A stretch of 24,000 bases of DNA, from positions 69,662 to 93,661 of the forward strand of contig NZ_SOSC01000010.1 of the NCBI RefSeq assembly GCF_005049285.1, given 5' to 3'. The translations under genes and the position numbers were made by a program. Source of the stretch: Halorientalis salina. GTDB lineage: Archaea; Halobacteriota; Halobacteria; Halobacteriales; Haloarculaceae. Position 1 is the stretch's first letter, and each line of letters starts with the position of its first letter. This document shows positions 11,659-17,208 of this stretch, in pieces. The notes beneath the pieces are model-generated. The model saw only the letters and a list, made by a program, of their open reading frames with translations. It was not told the DNA's origin and made no database searches.

Positions 11659-12240
11659 ATGCGAGAAGACGGGACAGCCGAACCCGACGGCGACGACGAC
11701 CGGGCCGACGAGGGTCTACCCGCGACATCGTCGATCGACGGCGCTGTCGGCGAGGAACTGACGCGACTGCGCGGCGAGATCGAGCAGCTATCGGTCGCGG
11801 TGGCGACCCTCCAGGAGGCCGACGAGGAGCGCGAACAGCGGCTCTCGGACCTCGAAACGCGCGTCGAGGACTACCAGCGGCGCGGCGAGCGCGAGCGCGA
11901 GCAACTGGCCGCACAGACGCTGGCCGACTTCGCCGACCGCATGCTGTCGGTCAAGGACAGCCTCGACAACGTCCTCGGGATGGCCGACCTGGACGAGGAC
12001 ACCGACCGACAGCTCTCGCTGGTCCGCAAACAGTTCGAGCAGTCCTTTACCGGCGGCGAGGTCGAGCGCATCCGCTCGGACGGCCAGTTCGACGCGAGCC
12101 GACACAAGATGGTCGAACGGGTGCCGGCCGACGACCGCGACGACGGCGAGATCGTCCGAGAACTCGACGCGGGCTATGCTCTGGGGGACCGCGTCCTCAG
12201 ACCGGCCCGCGTCGTGGTCGCGAAAGGCGACGGCTCCTGA
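11659..12240 (+). CDS. grpE: nucleotide exchange factor GrpE
   Basis: Acidic N-terminus, a long coiled-coil (LRGEIEQL...LETRVEDYQRRGEREREQL) and a C-terminal beta domain with GQFDASRHKMV (the FDPxxHxA-type motif) and GYALGDRVLRPARVVVAK. Confidence 0.85.
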   Translation: MREDGTAEPDGDDDRADEGLPATSSIDGAVGEELTRLRGEIEQLSVAVATLQEADEEREQRLSDLETRVEDYQRRGEREREQLAAQTLADFADRMLSVKDSLDNVLGMADLDEDTDRQLSLVRKQFEQSFTGGEVERIRSDGQFDASRHKMVERVPADDRDDGEIVRELDAGYALGDRVLRPARVVVAKGDGS

Positions 12241-12255
12241 CTCGTCGCCGAACGA

Positions 12256-13257
12256 TCAACCGCCAGCCAGATACCCGGCCAGTCCGCCGATGGCGACCGG
12301 GTAGACAAGCCCCATTATCAGAACTGCGCTGCCAAGGTCCGGCTGAATCGTGACGACGCCACCGGTCCCGCTGTACGAGAAGACGGTCATCGCGCCGAGG
12401 ACCGTGAGCGCGAGGTAGCCGACGGCGATCGTCGCGCCGGCCCGGGCGCTGTCGAACCGGGAGACGGGTTCGTCCATCGACGCTCGCGAGGCGAGTATCA
12501 TCCCGAACAGCAAGAGGAGCACTGCCGGGACGACGTAGTAGGCGATTTTCGGCACTATCGGGTCCAGCGTGGCGCTGTAGGCCTCTTCGACGAAGTTTAT
12601 CGACTCGTCACCGGCCGAGTCCGTAGTCTGGACTCCGTGTGCCGAGTAGAAGAACCAGCCGAACAGCGCGACCAGCGCATCGACCGAGTCCTCCACCGGA
12701 AGCACGCCCAGCCCGTCGCTGTCCTCCACTTCCAGGAGGACGAAGGCGGAGATGACGACGAAACTGATGAGATACGAGAACAGCCCGTAAATGACGCCGC
12801 CGACGATGGGCAGGTCCGAGAGCAGACTCGTGGCCGTTCCGGTCGTCTGCTGGTTGCCGCCCTGACGCGTGCCGCCACCGCGCTGGGCTCCCTGGCCCTG
12901 TCGCTGGTGACCGCCGGGCTGACTGCCCTGCGTCGGTTGCTGGTAATTGCCGGACTGACCACCCTGGCCCGGTTGCTGCTGACCGCCCTGCGTCGGTTGT
13001 TGCCGGCCGCCCTGCGTCGGTTGCTGTGGACCGCCACCGGATTGCTGGGGTTGGCCCCCGCCGACACTGACGGGTTGCCCGGACTCCTGGGTCCCCGATC
13101 CGGGCTGTTGGGGCGGTGTCTGGCCGGTCCCGTGTTCGTCGCCCTGGGTCGGTTGCGTGCCCTGTCCACCCTGCTCGTCCTGTGACAGCGTCACGCCACA
13201 CTCGGGACACTGCCGGTTCTGTGCGGACACCTCGGTCCCGCACGACGGACAGTACAT
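12256..13257 (-). CDS. zinc-ribbon membrane protein with a long Gln/Gly/Pro-rich low-complexity domain
   Basis: N-terminal MYCPSCGTEVSAQNRQCPECG (CxxC-x11-CxxC zinc ribbon). A Q/G/P/T-rich region of ~115 aa follows, with reiterated QQPTQGG units, then a C-terminal domain with several hydrophobic TM segments. Confidence 0.85.
   Translation of the reverse strand: MYCPSCGTEVSAQNRQCPECGVTLSQDEQGGQGTQPTQGDEHGTGQTPPQQPGSGTQESGQPVSVGGGQPQQSGGGPQQPTQGGRQQPTQGGQQQPGQGGQSGNYQQPTQGSQPGGHQRQGQGAQRGGGTRQGGNQQTTGTATSLLSDLPIVGGVIYGLFSYLISFVVISAFVLLEVEDSDGLGVLPVEDSVDALVALFGWFFYSAHGVQTTDSAGDESINFVEEAYSATLDPIVPKIAYYVVPAVLLLLFGMILASRASMDEPVSRFDSARAGATIAVGYLALTVLGAMTVFSYSGTGGVVTIQPDLGSAVLIMGLVYPVAIGGLAGYLAGG
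12838..13182 (-). repeat. Q/G/P-rich low-complexity coding region with imperfect reiterated units (QQPTQGG; DNA unit gccctgcgtcggttg on the + strand occurs 3 times)
   Basis: Read directly from the translation (aa 26-140 of the zinc-ribbon protein) and from the DNA. Confidence 0.85.
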
Positions 13258-13326: not shown

Positions 13327-14928
13327 TCAGGACCCGACCTGTGCCGTATCGCTGCCGTCGTCGGGCGAGGTGCCGGTGACGTTCTGTTCGACGGTGAGCG
13401 AGCCCTCGGCGTCGCCGTCGATGTCTTCGGCCGTCACGTGGAGAATGCCGTCGTCGTCGATCCGGAAGGTCACCTCGATGGTCGGGTCGCCGGCCGGGGC
13501 CTCCGGGATGCCGGTGAGCGTGAACTCGTCCAACTTCTCGTTCTCGCGAGCCGTTTCGTGTTCGCCCTGAAACACGTCGATGGCCATGATCGTCTGGTCG
13601 TCGCGGGTCGTCGTGTAGTACTTCGTCCCCGTCGCTTCCGTGATGGGCGTCCCCTTCTCGATCAAGACGTTGAAGCTGCCGTCCTTGACGCGGGTGCCCA
13701 GCGAGCGTGTGACGATGCTTTTGACCGTGATCTCGCCGCGTTCCTCGACTTTCTCGGCGTGATCCGCTGCCCCGTGTGCGTCGTCGACGTGGTTCTGGAA
13801 CGCCTCGCGGGCGTCGAAGGTCTCGCCGCAGGTGCAAGCGTACTGCTCCTCGACGGCCCCGCTCTTCTCGGCGTACAGCGCCGCCCCCTTCGCGACGATC
13901 TTGTCCGGTTCGAAGGTCAGTTCGGGATCGACGCCGGTGTAGTCGGCGACGCGTTCCTGGATGGCCGGCATCCGCGTCGACCCGCCCACCAGCAAGACGG
14001 TGTCGACGTCGCGGGTCGTGCGGTCGGCGTCGTCGAGCGCCTGTTCCAGCGGGGCCAGGGCTCGTTCCCGGAGGTCCTCCGTGATCGACTCGAAGGTGTC
14101 GCGGGTCAGCGTCTCCTCGACGTCGACGATCTCGCCGTCGACCTGGCCGAGTAGCGGTTCGATGAGTTCTGTCTCCGCGGCGGTCGAGAGGTCGATCTTC
14201 GCGCTCTCGCCGAGCGAGCGGAGGTTCGCCCGGAGTTCGTCCGCGGCCAGGACGTCGATGCCCCGGTCCCCCTCGATCCGGTCGGCGACGTGTTCGACGA
14301 TCGCCTCGTCGAAGTCGGTGCCGCCGAGGTGGTTGTCGCCACTGGTCGTCAGGATGGTGAAGGTGTCGTCGGCGATCTCCAGAACGGAGACGTCGAGCGT
14401 GCCGCCGCCGAAGTCGTAGACCACGAGCGTCTCCTCGTCGAGGCCGGCGTCGTAGCCGTGGGCGATGGCCGCCGCGGTCGGTTCGTTCAGGAGCGTGATC
14501 TCGTCGAAGCCGGCCAGTTCGGCTGCCCGTCGGGTCGCCTTCTTCTGGTCTGCGGTGAAGTAGGCCGGGACGGTGACGACGGCTCTCGTGACTTCCTCAC
14601 CGAGATAGGACTCGGCGTCAGCCTTGAGTTTCCGGAGGATCTCGGCGGAGATCTCGGCGGGGTCGTAGGACTCGCCGTCGATCTCGACGCCGTCACCCGT
14701 GCCGATGTGGCGCTTGATGGTTCTGATCGTTCGGTCGGGATTGGCGGGGGCGCGGTTCTCGGCGCGCCGGCCGACCACCGGGTCCCCGTCGTCGTCGAAG
14801 CTGACGACCGACGGCGTCAGCGGCTCGCCCTCGTTGTTCTGTAACATCTGGACGTCGTCGCCCTCGATGAGCGCCATGCCGCTGTTGGTCGTCCCGAGAT
14901 CGATCCCCAGGGCCTTCTCACTGACCAT
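13327..14928 (-). CDS. Hsp70/DnaK-family ATPase paralog, lid-less, with a zinc-finger-like insertion between the NBD and SBD
   Basis: MVSEKALGIDLGTTNS, VTVPAYF, NEPTAAAIAHG, DFGGGTLDVS and LVGGSTRMPAIQ are Hsp70 NBD motifs. IPEAPAGDPTIEVTFRIDDDGILHVTAED is the SBD-beta signature. The protein ends shortly after SBD-beta, at 533 aa from ATG 14928, with no helical lid or EEVD-like tail. AGGTG lies 11 nt upstream of the ATG. Confidence 0.9.
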   Translation of the reverse strand: MVSEKALGIDLGTTNSGMALIEGDDVQMLQNNEGEPLTPSVVSFDDDGDPVVGRRAENRAPANPDRTIRTIKRHIGTGDGVEIDGESYDPAEISAEILRKLKADAESYLGEEVTRAVVTVPAYFTADQKKATRRAAELAGFDEITLLNEPTAAAIAHGYDAGLDEETLVVYDFGGGTLDVSVLEIADDTFTILTTSGDNHLGGTDFDEAIVEHVADRIEGDRGIDVLAADELRANLRSLGESAKIDLSTAAETELIEPLLGQVDGEIVDVEETLTRDTFESITEDLRERALAPLEQALDDADRTTRDVDTVLLVGGSTRMPAIQERVADYTGVDPELTFEPDKIVAKGAALYAEKSGAVEEQYACTCGETFDAREAFQNHVDDAHGAADHAEKVEERGEITVKSIVTRSLGTRVKDGSFNVLIEKGTPITEATGTKYYTTTRDDQTIMAIDVFQGEHETARENEKLDEFTLTGIPEAPAGDPTIEVTFRIDDDGILHVTAEDIDGDAEGSLTVEQNVTGTSPDDGSDTAQVGS

Positions 14929-14991
14929 CTCGACTACACCTGCCTCGCCGCGGCATATCACGCTTTCGCCCGATGTGAGCGACGAAGCCGG

Positions 14992-17208
14992 TCAATCGTC
15001 GCCTCCGGAGGGTACCGCCTGTATCTTCTCGTCGCCCGCGTCGATCTCGAAGGCGGCGAGCATCTCCTGGAGTTCTCGGGTCCGCTCGGCCAGGCTCGCC
15101 GCCGAGTCCGACACCTGGCTGATCGAGCTGCTGGCCTCCTCGGAGGCGGCGGCGACGGTCTCGGCCTGCTGGGTGGTCTCCTCGGAGACGCTGGCGATCT
15201 CGTCGACCATCCGGACGATCTGCTGGGCAGAGTCGGCCTGTTCGTCGGTGGCGTCGTTGATGCTCTTGAGGCCGCCGTCGACGCTGTCGACCCCGTCGAC
15301 GATCGCTTCGAGCGAGTCGGTCAGGTCCTCGACGGTCTCGGTCCCCTCGGTGATGCGGGACTCGGCTTCGCGGATGTCCTCGGCGCTGGCCGTCGCCCGG
15401 TCCTGGACCGACGAGATGGTCGTCTCGATCTCGTCGACCGCCCGCTGGGTCTCCTCGGAGAGTTCCTTGACCTCCTCGGCGACGACCGCGAACCCGGAGC
15501 CGGACTCGCCGGCGCGGGCGGCCTCGATGTTGGCGTTCAGCGCCAGAATCGAGGTCTGCTCGGCGATCTCGTCGATCAGACGAGTCACCTCGCTGATCTC
15601 GTCGATCTCGTCGGTGAGCCGCTCGATCGACTCGACTACGTTGCCCGTCTGTGCCTCGATGGACTGCATCTCCTCGATGGTCGCCTCGGCCTGCTCGCGG
15701 CCCTCGGCACCGAGTTCGGCCACCCTGTCGGACTGGCTGGCGACCTCGTCGGTCGTCGAGGCCACCTCCTCGATGGTCGCCGAGAGGTCGTTGACCTCGT
15801 CACCCGTCGCCTGCAGGTCCTCGGTCTGTTCCTGTGCGCCCGTCGAGATTCCCTGGATGGAGCGGCTGACCTCCTCGCTTGCCTCCTTGACCTCGCCGGC
15901 GCTGTCCTCGACGTCGTGACTCGACGCGGCGACGTCCTCGGCGAACTGCTGGACGTCGGCGACGGTCCGTTCGAGGTCGGCGATCATCTCGTTGAACGAG
16001 TCGGCGATCGACTGCATCGCATCACTGTCGGTTTCGGGGTCGAGCCGCCGGGTGAGGTCGCCGTCCGCACAGGCCGCCATCGTCTCGCTGTAGCGTTCGG
16101 CCTCGGCTTCGAGCTGCTCGTTGAACCGCTGGGTCTCGAGTTCGCGCTGTTCGGCCTCCTCGCGTGCGCGTTCGGCCTCGGCTCTCGCGTCGTCGGCTTC
16201 GGCCAGGGACTCCTTGAGCGAGTCGCGCATCGCGCCGAACTCCCCGTAGAGCATCCCGACCTCGTCGGTGCGGTCGGTCTCCAGTTCGACGTCCAGGTTC
16301 CCCTCGCCGATCTCGCTGGCCCGATCCGCGAGCTGGCGCAGCGCCAGTGCGAGGTTGCCACCGATGGTGATCCCGAACACGCCGAGGTTCAGGGCGATGA
16401 CGTACAGGAGCGCGACGAGCCCCGCCGTCGCGGTGTTCCGGTCAGTGTACACCACGTCGCTCGGCGCGTACGTCACGACCTGCCAGTTCGTGTCGGCCAC
16501 GCCCGCCCCCGTCGTCGCGAACTCGGACCCGTCGACGGTCGTCGTCTCGATGCCCTCGTCGCCGGCCAGGTCCGCCGCGCCCGTGGCGTTCCACGCCGTC
16601 GACCCGGATGCGGCCACTGGGGTTCCGTCGACCACGAGCGCCGTCGCGTAGCCGTCGTCCGCGATCCGGGACTGCAGGGACGCCGTCGAGGCGTCCACGA
16701 CGATCGCGCGGTCCGCGTCGACCGCCGCCACGAACGGCACGACCGTCGCGTCACCGCTCACGGCCGCCCGCGGCGTGCCCGCGACCGCCTCGCCGTCGCC
16801 GGCGTCACCGACCGCGACCGTCTCGCCCGTCGCGTCGCTCGCCGAACTCGACAGTATCTCGCCGCTCGTCCGGTCGACGTAGTGGACCGCGGCGACGCGA
16901 TCGGCCCCTGCCGCCCGGTCGAGTCGATCCGCGATCCGGTCGGTATCGCCGCTCTCGACGGCGCTCGACGTCGCGACGCCGGTGGCGAGTGCCTCGTTCG
17001 AGTCGGCCCACAGCGCCGTGACGTTGGCACCGTCGCTCGCGTGGTCGGTGAAGGCCGCGTCCGCCGACTGCCCGAGTTCGCCGGCAACGTTACCGTAAAA
17101 AAAGGCGGTCGAGACCAGCGTGATCAGGAAGACCACGCTGAGCGTGACCACCATCTTCAGGCTGTAGCTCGACCTGACCCGATCCAGTACGTTCGTATCG
17201 AAGTTCAT
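14992..17208 (-). CDS. membrane-bound methyl-accepting transducer (HtrII-like: TM1, ~220-aa extracellular Cache-like domain, TM2, HAMP, MCP signalling domain)
   Basis: TM1 [23 protein letters not shown] and TM2 [33 protein letters not shown] segments ([26 protein letters not shown], and [26 protein letters not shown]) and the MCP core [40 protein letters not shown]. Confidence 0.93.

What the first reader, a model, noticed from the sequence alone, without database searches (positions are those of the whole stretch)
13774..13842. C2H2-like zinc-finger motif inserted at the NBD-SBD junction of a lid-less Hsp70 paralog
In canonical DnaK the NBD ends near (D/E)EAVAxGAAIQ and runs directly into the conserved hydrophobic interdomain linker (consensus approximately D-V/L-L-L-L-D-V-T-P-L-S-L-G, quoted from memory). 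Here AKGAALYAEKSG is followed by a ~35-aa insertion before ITVKSIVTRSLG. The insertion contains Y-A-C-T-C-G-E-T-F-D-A-R-E-A-F-Q-N-H-V-D-D-A-H. This has C-x-C, three residues, F, five residues, F, two residues, H, four residues, H. It mirrors the classical C2H2 finger pattern (Y/F-x-C-x(2-4)-C-x3-F-x5-hydrophobic-x2-H-x(3-5)-H), except that only one residue separates the cysteines. The protein also ends right after SBD-beta, with no alpha-helical lid. A metal-binding or nucleic-acid-binding module placed exactly at the allosteric linker of an Hsp70 is unusual and would be expected to alter interdomain coupling. The protein is clearly not the housekeeping DnaK: it is shorter and its N-terminus and motifs are divergent.
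Basis: partly seen in the sequence, partly recalled or inferred. Interest (0 to 1): 0.6.

Follow-up and report, generated by a model that had tools for sequence, protein, structure and literature searches.

The report
Zinc finger inserted into archaeal Hsp70
A salt-loving archaeon has a second, shortened Hsp70 chaperone with a small zinc-finger domain inserted where its ATPase joins its client-binding half; this is a rare, apparently undescribed Hsp70 variant that works with its own GrpE partner.

Summary
Window 13774-13842 (minus strand) encodes YACTCGETFDAREAFQNHVDDAH. It lies inside a 533-aa lid-less Hsp70 paralog (13330-14928, minus). The genome carries a normal grpE-dnaK-dnaJ locus elsewhere.

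The motif is a real C2H2 finger, for these reasons:
- C365, C367, H380, H385 and the hydrophobic core are invariant in all 10 close orthologues.
- It aligns residue for residue with finger 1 of a sister clade. That clade has two canonical CxxC-x12-H-x4-H fingers at the same junction, and they score above Pfam zf-C2H2 thresholds.
- AlphaFold2 predicts a beta-beta-alpha fold, and its structural matches are C2H2 fingers.
- The strict pattern occurs only once in this genome.

The CxC spacing is a one-residue deletion. The same spacing occurs in a solved human finger (PDB 2csh).

The family branches beside haloarchaeal DnaK on a long stem. It keeps the ATPase catalytic residues and a dedicated, co-inherited GrpE. 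It has replaced all three J-domain HPD contact residues of DnaK (R167, Q378, P419). The insertion starts just after the Q378 position.

The insert is very acidic (net charge -7 to -11), which argues against nucleic-acid binding. My best reading is a protein-docking or regulatory module at the former J-domain site. Relatives outside the window's clade sit in vWA/FtsZ-like-1 gene clusters that this genome lacks. The family is rare (4 of 301 Halobacteria genomes). Zinc binding is untested.

The parts
13327..14928 (-). Lid-less Hsp70 paralog, 533 aa plus stop codon (P0003)
   Evidence: ORF. Pfam HSP70 E=9e-136. Orthologues begin at the same MVSEK start. A canonical DnaK lies elsewhere in the genome.
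13867..14928 (-). Nucleotide-binding domain (residues 1-354). Catalytic residues are intact: D10, T13, T14, K72, E149, D172, T177, D179.
   Evidence: These columns are invariant across 66 Hsp70s. AF2 pLDDT is about 85-95.
13732..13866 (-). Inserted segment (residues 355-399) between the last NBD helix and the interdomain linker
   Evidence: Absent from all canonical DnaKs in alignments A1/A2. Net charge is -9.
13774..13842 (-). C2H2-type finger core Y363-H385. Ligand codons: C365 = 13834-13836, C367 = 13828-13830, H380 = 13789-13791, H385 = 13774-13776.
   Evidence: Translation. The ligands and Y363, G368, F371, R374 and D382 are invariant in 10 orthologues. Beta-beta-alpha fold in AF2. Foldseek hits are almost all C2H2 fingers.
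13705..13731 (-). Modified interdomain linker ITVKSIVTR (residues 400-408), in place of the canonical (V/I)(V/L)LLDVTPL
   Evidence: Alignment. Family-specific substitutions include L392->T/K, P396->T/S and L397->R/H. AF2 predicts it as strand 401-405 within an ATP-like docked model.
13390..13704 (-). Substrate-binding beta-sandwich (residues 409-513)
   Evidence: Matches Pfam HSP70 profile positions 380-501. AF2 gives strands with pLDDT about 83-93.
13330..13389 (-). Short acidic disordered tail (residues 514-533) in place of the helical lid
   Evidence: pLDDT is below 50 for residues 519-533. Canonical DnaKs continue for about 100 or more further residues.
11659..12240 (+). Dedicated GrpE paralog, convergent with the Hsp70 paralog
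   Evidence: Pfam GrpE E=2.8e-27. A GrpE gene lies convergent downstream of the Hsp70 paralog in L004, L005, L006, L017/18, L020, L022 and L023, and within the same cluster in L021. It is 40% identical to the GrpE of the two-finger clade but only 28% identical to this genome's canonical GrpE.

Best explanation
The segment is a genuine C2H2 (beta-beta-alpha) zinc-finger domain inserted between the last helix of the ATPase domain and the interdomain linker of a specialised, lid-less Hsp70 paralog. The paralog family arose beside the haloarchaeal DnaK lineage and then diverged quickly. Its ancestral form probably carried two classical C2H2 fingers at this junction. The window's clade (Halorientalis) retains one finger whose Cys knuckle lost one residue (CxxC to CxC). 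The protein still cycles nucleotide: its catalytic residues are intact and it has a dedicated, co-inherited GrpE. It has replaced the three DnaK residues that the HPD motif of J-domains contacts (R167, Q378, P419) and has remodelled the linker. The insertion begins a few residues after the Q378 position. I infer that the finger is an acidic protein-protein docking or regulatory module located at the former J-domain docking site. On this reading it couples the ATPase cycle to a specific partner or client instead of canonical J-protein targeting and lid closure. Shown here: presence, conservation, homology to canonical fingers, predicted fold, the GrpE pairing, and the loss of the J-contact residues. 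Inferred: zinc binding, protein docking, and J-independence.
For: - Motif present.
- In 10 orthologues of 77-94% identity, 11 of 23 motif positions are invariant, and these are the four ligands plus the structural core. The helix positions -1, 2, 3 and 6 are the most variable.
- dN/dS of the insert is 0.27-0.61, against 0.12-0.22 for the rest of the gene, so it stays below 1.
- The finger aligns with finger 1 of the two-finger clade; E, Y, C, C, G, F, D, H, D and H are invariant across both clades.
- The two-finger relatives score above Pfam thresholds: zf-C2H2 25.8 and 28.5 bits against a cut-off of 25.2, and zf-Di19 36.4 bits against 27.5. They also match solved classical fingers (1mey 7e-8, CTCF 1.5e-7).
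- All 18 weak PDB hits of the window's own insert are C2H2 fingers. One of them is 2csh (ZNF297B), with the same CxC spacing aligned without a gap.
- AF2 of the full-length protein gives strands 360-364 and 370-371 and helix 374-388. The insert-only model has pLDDT 87-88 over the finger core.
- Nearly all of the top 50 Foldseek hits are C2H2 fingers.
- The strict pattern is unique in the genome.
- In the tree the lid-less family is monophyletic (SH-aLRT 100) and sister to haloarchaeal DnaK (98). Two-finger forms occur in two separate lineages of the family.
- Catalytic residues are invariant.
- R167, Q378 and P419 are conserved in 32 of 32 canonical DnaKs but replaced in the family. Their role as HPD contacts is taken from Mayer 2021, PMC8215388.
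- A GrpE paralog lies next to the gene in 8 of the 9 distinct loci examined, and it is closer to the other family-linked GrpEs than to the genome's own canonical GrpE.
Against: - Zinc binding has not been measured. CxC is outside the classical Cx2-4C rule, and the window's own finger is below every Pfam gathering score (best 18.1 bits against 24).
- AF2 confidence for the insert within the full-length protein is only moderate (pLDDT about 68-77). The model coordinates could not be inspected, so neither ligand geometry nor the finger's position relative to the NBD could be checked.
- Five family members (P0023, P0025, P0033-35) have no finger at this junction, so the family can work without one.
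- The window's clade has lost finger 2 and the vWA/FtsZl1 partner genes. This is also what gradual decay would look like.
- The docking-partner and J-independence claims rest only on substitutions and position. No partner has been identified in this genome.
Confidence: 0.6

Rival explanations
1. Decaying relic. After finger 2 and the partner genes were lost, the remaining finger, with its shortened CxC knuckle, no longer binds zinc and now serves only as a spacer or tether before the linker.
For: There is a one-residue deletion in the knuckle and finger 2 is missing. The insert evolves 2-3 times faster at non-synonymous sites than the rest of the gene. Finger-less family members exist. The vWA and Tubulin_2 partners are absent from this genome.
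Against: All four ligands and the hydrophobic core are invariant in 10 orthologues, over a clade tree length of roughly 1.6 substitutions per site (my sum of the branch lengths). Variation is confined to exposed helix positions. dN/dS stays below 1. AF2 still folds the segment as beta-beta-alpha. A solved human finger has the same CxC spacing (2csh).
Confidence: 0.15
2. Nucleic-acid-targeting module. The finger tethers the Hsp70 to DNA or RNA (for example the ribosome or a specific locus), as classical C2H2 fingers do.
For: This is the classical role of C2H2 fingers. The weak sequence and structure matches include small archaeal C2H2 proteins bound to the Thermococcus ribosome (6skg_Bo at 0.8 A rmsd over 26 columns, and 9qf4_Bk).
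Against: The net charge of the insert is -7 to -11 in the one-finger clade and -11 to -24 in the two-finger clade. The canonical base-contact positions -1, 2, 3 and 6 are Ala/Glu/Ala/Asn here and are the most variable columns. A single finger without basic flanks rarely binds nucleic acid (general knowledge, not tested here).
Confidence: 0.1
3. Zinc/redox switch. Reversible loss of zinc, through oxidation of the two Cys or zinc limitation, unfolds the finger, lengthens the tether between the NBD and the linker, and so switches interdomain coupling on or off. This would be analogous in logic to Hsp33.
For: The position directly precedes the allosteric linker. Cysteine is rare in this proteome and these two are strictly conserved. 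A third conserved His (H390) lies five residues after H385.
Against: There is no direct evidence. Classical C2H2 sites are usually structural. The neighbouring genes give no link to redox or metal stress. Finger-less relatives exist.
Confidence: 0.1

Closest known systems
Canonical (haloarchaeal) DnaK / Hsp70, PF00012
   Same: It has an actin-fold NBD with all catalytic residues, an SBD-beta sandwich and a GrpE-type exchange factor. It is 47-50% identical to haloarchaeal DnaKs and is their sister group in the tree. The AF2 model superposes on ATP-state DnaK with TM 0.78-0.80.
   Different: It has no helical lid. It has a 35-45-residue zinc-finger insertion before the linker. The linker is remodelled. 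The J-domain HPD contact residues R167, Q378 and P419 are replaced. It is not in a grpE-dnaK-dnaJ operon, and it is rare and patchily distributed.
Specialised prokaryotic Hsp70 paralogs HscA and HscC (Mayer 2021, PMC8215388)
   Same: They are non-housekeeping Hsp70 paralogs with altered NBD/SBD features, a sporadic distribution and dedicated co-factors.
   Different: HscA and HscC keep a lid, use dedicated J-proteins and have lost GrpE dependence. This family does the opposite: it has no lid, keeps a dedicated GrpE and has lost the J-contact residues. NCBIfam HscA scores are far below the cut-offs (375 against 708). The family branches with haloarchaeal DnaK.
Classical C2H2 (Krueppel/TFIIIA-type) zinc finger, PF00096; CxC variant in human ZNF297B/ZBTB43 finger 1 (PDB 2csh)
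   Same: The pattern is Y-x-C...C-x3-F-x5-F-x2-H-x4-H with a predicted beta-beta-alpha fold. The sister clade's fingers pass the Pfam thresholds. The 2csh finger shares the CxC spacing.
   Different: Only one residue separates the cysteines. The surface is strongly acidic. The finger is embedded as an internal insertion in a chaperone rather than forming part of a DNA-binding array. It is archaeal.
vWA/FtsZ-like-1 (Tubulin_2) operons (Makarova & Koonin 2010, PMC2875224) and the HSP70-GrpE theme of GAP1-N2 DO-GTPase conflict systems (Kaur et al. 2020, PMC7159879)
   Same: Two-finger and finger-less relatives of this protein are encoded beside a vWA protein, GrpE, a conserved protein of about 396 aa and a Tubulin_2/FtsZl1 protein. 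Kaur et al. describe HSP70+GrpE and tubulin+vWA as components of such systems in bacteria.
   Different: The window's locus and genome lack the vWA and Tubulin_2 partners. The 396-aa neighbour has no P-loop, so no DO-GTPase was recognised. Term searches of the main text of the two papers found no Hsp70 or DnaK in PMC2875224 and no 'zinc finger' or haloarchaea in PMC7159879.

Membership tests
Hsp70 (PF00012) | Actin-fold NBD with catalytic Asp/Lys/Glu/Thr residues | tested here: met
   Pfam E=9e-136. D10, T13, T14, K72, E149, D172, T177 and D179 are invariant columns in 66 Hsp70s.
Hsp70 (PF00012) | SBD-beta sandwich | tested here: met
   Matches profile positions 380-501. AF2 strands have pLDDT of about 83-93.
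Hsp70 (PF00012) | Alpha-helical lid (SBD-alpha) | tested here: not met
   The protein ends about 20 residues after the last beta strand.
Hsp70 (DnaK type) | Conserved hydrophobic linker VLLLD and J-domain HPD contacts R167, Q378, P419 | tested here: not met
   The linker is ITVKS. R167 is T here (H/K/E/T in the family), Q378 is Y and P419 is T. The contact list comes from PMC8215388.
Hsp70 (DnaK type) | GrpE as nucleotide exchange factor | tested here: inconclusive
   A dedicated GrpE gene is conserved beside the gene and appears co-inherited. A physical interaction was not tested.
Classical C2H2 zinc finger (PF00096 / PF13894) | C-x2-4-C ... H-x3-5-H ligand spacing with 12 residues between Cys2 and His1 | tested here: not met
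   The x12 and H-x4-H spacings are met, but the Cys pair is C-x-C. The sister clade has CxxC or Cx4C.
Classical C2H2 zinc finger (PF00096 / PF13894) | Score above the Pfam gathering threshold | tested here: not met
   For the window's finger the best scores are 18.1 bits against 24 (C2H2_ASCIZ_4th) and 13.8 bits against 27 for zf-C2H2_4. The homologous fingers of P0013, P0014 and P0032 pass.
Classical C2H2 zinc finger (PF00096 / PF13894) | Beta-beta-alpha fold with a conserved hydrophobic core | tested here: met
   AF2 gives two short strands and a helix carrying both His residues. Foldseek hits are C2H2 fingers, top probability 0.94. Y363, F371 and F377 are conserved. This is a prediction only.
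Classical C2H2 zinc finger (PF00096 / PF13894) | Binds one Zn(II) through Cys2His2 | not testable with these tools
   This needs ICP-MS or spectroscopy.
HscA / HscC | Membership by curated model and phylogeny | tested here: not met
   NCBIfam HscA scores 375 against a cut-off of 708. The tree places the family as sister to haloarchaeal DnaK.
vWA/FtsZl1 (Tubulin_2) module | Neighbouring vWA and FtsZl1 genes | tested here: not met
   This is not met for the window. It is met for relatives in L005, L015-18 and L020-22.

The most novel reading that the evidence does not exclude
The C2H2 finger or fingers act as a built-in replacement for J-protein targeting. On this reading the zinc-dependent docking module sits on the former J-domain site and lets a specific partner trigger ATP hydrolysis directly. 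In the ancestral module that partner would be the vWA/FtsZl1 assembly; in Halorientalis it might be the upstream transducer array. This would make it an Hsp70 that runs a GrpE-assisted cycle without any J-domain protein and without a lid.
Probability: 0.2. Interest if true: 0.85.

Novelty: new variant of a known kind. Interest (0 to 1): 0.62.

Why it matters
Hsp70 architecture (NBD, hydrophobic linker, SBD-beta, lid) and its dependence on J-domain proteins are among the most conserved features in protein biology. To my knowledge, and in the literature searches made here, no folded domain inserted exactly at the NBD/linker junction has been described. This family also has no lid, lacks the three HPD-contact residues and keeps a private GrpE. 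If the finger proves to be a zinc-dependent docking or switching element, the family offers a natural experiment on how Hsp70 allostery can be rewired. In relatives it would also give an experimental handle on the uncharacterised vWA/FtsZ-like-1 systems. It adds a rare case of a classical C2H2 finger used as an internal insert in an archaeal enzyme.

Tried and rejected
- PADLOC scan of the Hsp70 paralog, its GrpE and the downstream zinc-ribbon gene: no defence-system match.
- Zinc-ribbon / Q-G-rich / membrane gene (12256-13257) as a conserved partner: rejected. It is absent between the Hsp70 paralog and grpE in the orthologous loci L004, L006 and L023.
- The ~396-aa neighbour of the sister clade as a DO-GTPase: no Walker A motif and no Pfam family.
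- HscA/HscC or YegD assignment: rejected by scores and by the tree.
- Literature searches for an Hsp70 with a C2H2 insertion, or for haloarchaeal Hsp70 paralogs with zinc fingers: nothing relevant found.
- 50%-identity representative library: among the 150 best Hsp70 hits only one further protein (P0126) has C2H2 fingers at this junction. The listing is too shallow to exclude distant cases.
- AF2 coordinates are not exposed, so Cys/His geometry and the finger's position relative to the NBD could not be measured.
Full report
**Observation.** Window 13774-13842, read on the minus strand, translates to YACTCGETFDAREAFQNHVDDAH. The peptide lies in the ORF 13327-14961(-). Orthologues show that the start is ATG 14928, which gives a 533-aa protein, P0003. 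Pfam HSP70 matches residues 7-354 and then the SBD-beta part of the profile (positions 380-501 of 599). Nothing matches the lid. In an alignment with haloarchaeal DnaKs, including this genome's own, the protein has about 35-45 extra residues between GAALYAEKSG and EITVKSIVTRSLG. It also stops where lid helix A of DnaK begins. The genome has a complete canonical grpE-dnaK-dnaJ locus on another contig. The factual content of the finding is therefore correct.

**Is the motif a real finger?** Six lines of evidence agree.
- Conservation: ten orthologues of 77-94% identity (one named Halorientalis brevis) all carry Y-x-C-T-C-G-E-x-F-x2-R-x2-(F/L)-x2-H-x-D-x2-H. Eleven of the 23 positions are invariant, and these are the four ligands plus the structural core. 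The exposed helix positions -1, 2, 3 and 6 are the most variable columns.
- Selection: the first Cys codon differs synonymously between species. Pairwise dN/dS for the insert is 0.27-0.61, against 0.12-0.22 for the rest of the gene. The insert is less constrained but still under purifying selection.
- Homology: a sister group of about 50-57% identity (for example Halorubellus salinus) has, at the same junction, two canonical fingers (CxxC or Cx4C, then x12, H, x4, H). The window's finger aligns with finger 1, and E, Y, C, C, G, F, D, H, D and H are invariant across both groups. These relatives pass the Pfam gathering scores for zf-C2H2 and zf-Di19 and match solved classical fingers (1mey 7e-8, CTCF 1.5e-7).
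- The window's own insert: it is below threshold on its own, but all 18 of its weak PDB hits are C2H2 fingers. One is the ZNF297B finger in 2csh, which has the same CxC spacing and aligns without a gap.
- Structure prediction: AlphaFold2 on the full-length protein (mean pLDDT 85) gives two short strands (360-364 and 370-371) and a helix (374-388) that carries both His residues. The insert modelled alone has pLDDT 87-88 over the finger core. Nearly all of its top 50 Foldseek matches are C2H2 fingers; their E-values are not individually significant, as expected for a domain this small.
- Chance: the strict classical pattern occurs exactly once in 4.18 million residues of open frames in this genome.

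**The host protein and its family.** A maximum-likelihood tree built without the insert columns places all lid-less proteins in one clade (SH-aLRT 100). The clade sits on a long stem (1.12) and is sister to haloarchaeal DnaK (98). Two-finger forms occur in two separate lineages of the clade. The one-finger group is a tight sub-clade, and five members have no finger. The simplest reading is that a tandem pair was ancestral and was later reduced, but the basal branches are unresolved. All ATPase catalytic residues are invariant.

A column-by-column comparison shows which residues are conserved in canonical DnaKs but replaced in the family. R167 and Q378 are conserved in 32 of 32 canonical DnaKs, and P419 likewise. 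In the family R167 becomes H/K/E/T (T in the window protein), Q378 becomes Y, and P419 becomes E/T/A/D. Linker residues L392, P396 and L397 are also replaced. According to Mayer 2021 (PMC8215388), R167, Q378 and P419, together with the L391 backbone, are exactly what the HPD motif of the J-domain contacts. The insertion starts a few residues after the Q378 position. The AF2 model resembles ATP-state, docked DnaK (TM 0.78-0.80), and the modified linker is predicted as a strand.

**Partners and context.** A GrpE gene lies convergent and immediately downstream of the paralog in most loci examined, and within the same gene cluster in one more. The single exception is L015/L016. The window's GrpE is 40% identical to the GrpE of a two-finger locus, but only 28% identical to this genome's canonical GrpE. 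I read it as a dedicated, co-inherited exchange factor.

Outside the window's clade the Hsp70-GrpE pair lies in a conserved cluster. The cluster contains a vWA protein, a conserved protein of about 396 aa of unknown function, and a Tubulin_2/FtsZ-like-1 protein. A secreted protein and an AAA ATPase are present in some loci. This matches the vWA/FtsZl1 operons of Makarova and Koonin 2010. It also recalls the HSP70-GrpE and tubulin-vWA themes that Kaur et al. 2020 describe in bacterial conflict systems. No P-loop GTPase was recognised in the ~396-aa neighbour.

The window's genome lacks this vWA protein and any credible Tubulin_2 gene. In all four one-finger loci the paralog instead follows an Htr-type transducer gene, co-directionally and with a 22-63 bp spacer. 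These genomes are closely related, so this synteny is weak evidence. The zinc-ribbon/Q-rich membrane gene between the paralog and grpE is specific to this genome.

**Distribution.** Only 4 of 301 Halobacteria species genomes (3 of 80 genera) have a family member at the threshold used. Within the genus, only this genome and one of seven others have one. Among the 150 best representatives in a library of 1.84 billion proteins, only one further protein has fingers at this junction.

**Mechanism.**
- Shown: there is a conserved finger with a predicted fold at the NBD/linker junction. The ATPase site is intact and the gene has a private GrpE. The lid and the J-contact residues are lost.
- Inferred: the finger binds zinc and serves as a docking or regulatory element on the former J-domain site.
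- Against nucleic-acid binding: the insert has a net charge of -7 to -11 (-11 to -24 in two-finger relatives), and its canonical base-contact positions are acidic or small and variable.
- Rivals not excluded: a decaying relic and a zinc/redox switch. They are ranked lower for the reasons given in their entries.

**Novelty.** The sources annotate these proteins only as "Hsp70 family protein" or "DnaK". Literature searches found no description of an Hsp70 with a C2H2 insertion. I classify it as a new variant of a known kind.

**Limits.** There is no biochemical evidence for zinc binding. Sequencing-run data were unavailable. The organism name Halorientalis salina comes from earlier scan notes; it is consistent with the 87%-identical H. 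brevis orthologue but was not verified independently.

Noticed in passing
L005, L015-L018, L020-L022 (relatives' loci): The lid-less Hsp70 and GrpE sit in a conserved haloarchaeal cluster. Its members are a vWA protein, an uncharacterised protein of about 396 aa (conserved EEWLREQL and GFLRRFTWQ(F/Y)R motifs, no P-loop), a secreted protein of about 280-370 aa, and an 800-900-aa Tubulin_2/FtsZ-like-1 protein. Some loci also have a two-domain AAA ATPase. It looks like an archaeal version of the vWA/FtsZl1 systems with an Hsp70 arm.
   Followed up: partly
window 14992-17208 and 13330-14928; L004, L006, L023: In all four one-finger loci an Htr-type MCP gene ends 22-63 bp upstream of the Hsp70 paralog on the same strand, so the two may be co-transcribed. 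The genomes are closely related, so the linkage may be only inherited synteny.
   Followed up: partly
window 12256-13257 (-): The gene encoding a zinc ribbon, a Q/G/P-rich low-complexity stretch and a multi-TM domain lies between the Hsp70 paralog and grpE. It is absent from the orthologous loci of H. brevis and two metagenomic relatives, so it is a lineage-specific insertion and not a conserved partner. A TTTTAC element lies about 30 nt upstream of its ATG.
   Followed up: partly
G000 C2:14050-14649(-), C11:85325-86626(-), C18:174261-174974(-), C20:156481-157371(-): This genome encodes several other proteins with classical-looking C2H2 fingers. The finger on contig C11 (CPEPGCGETFESE...H-x4-H) resembles finger 2 of some two-finger Hsp70 relatives. 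This hints at a haloarchaeal pool of C2H2 fingers from which the insert may have been drawn.
   Followed up: no
window 13759-13761 (H390): A third histidine, five residues after the second zinc ligand, is invariant in all ten one-finger orthologues. In one alignment it falls in the column of the last His of finger 2 in the two-finger clade, so it may be a remnant of the lost finger or an alternative ligand.
   Followed up: no
P0031 (two-finger relative): Finger 1 of this relative ends in Cys instead of His (HYDTDC), which makes it a C2HC variant.
   Followed up: no
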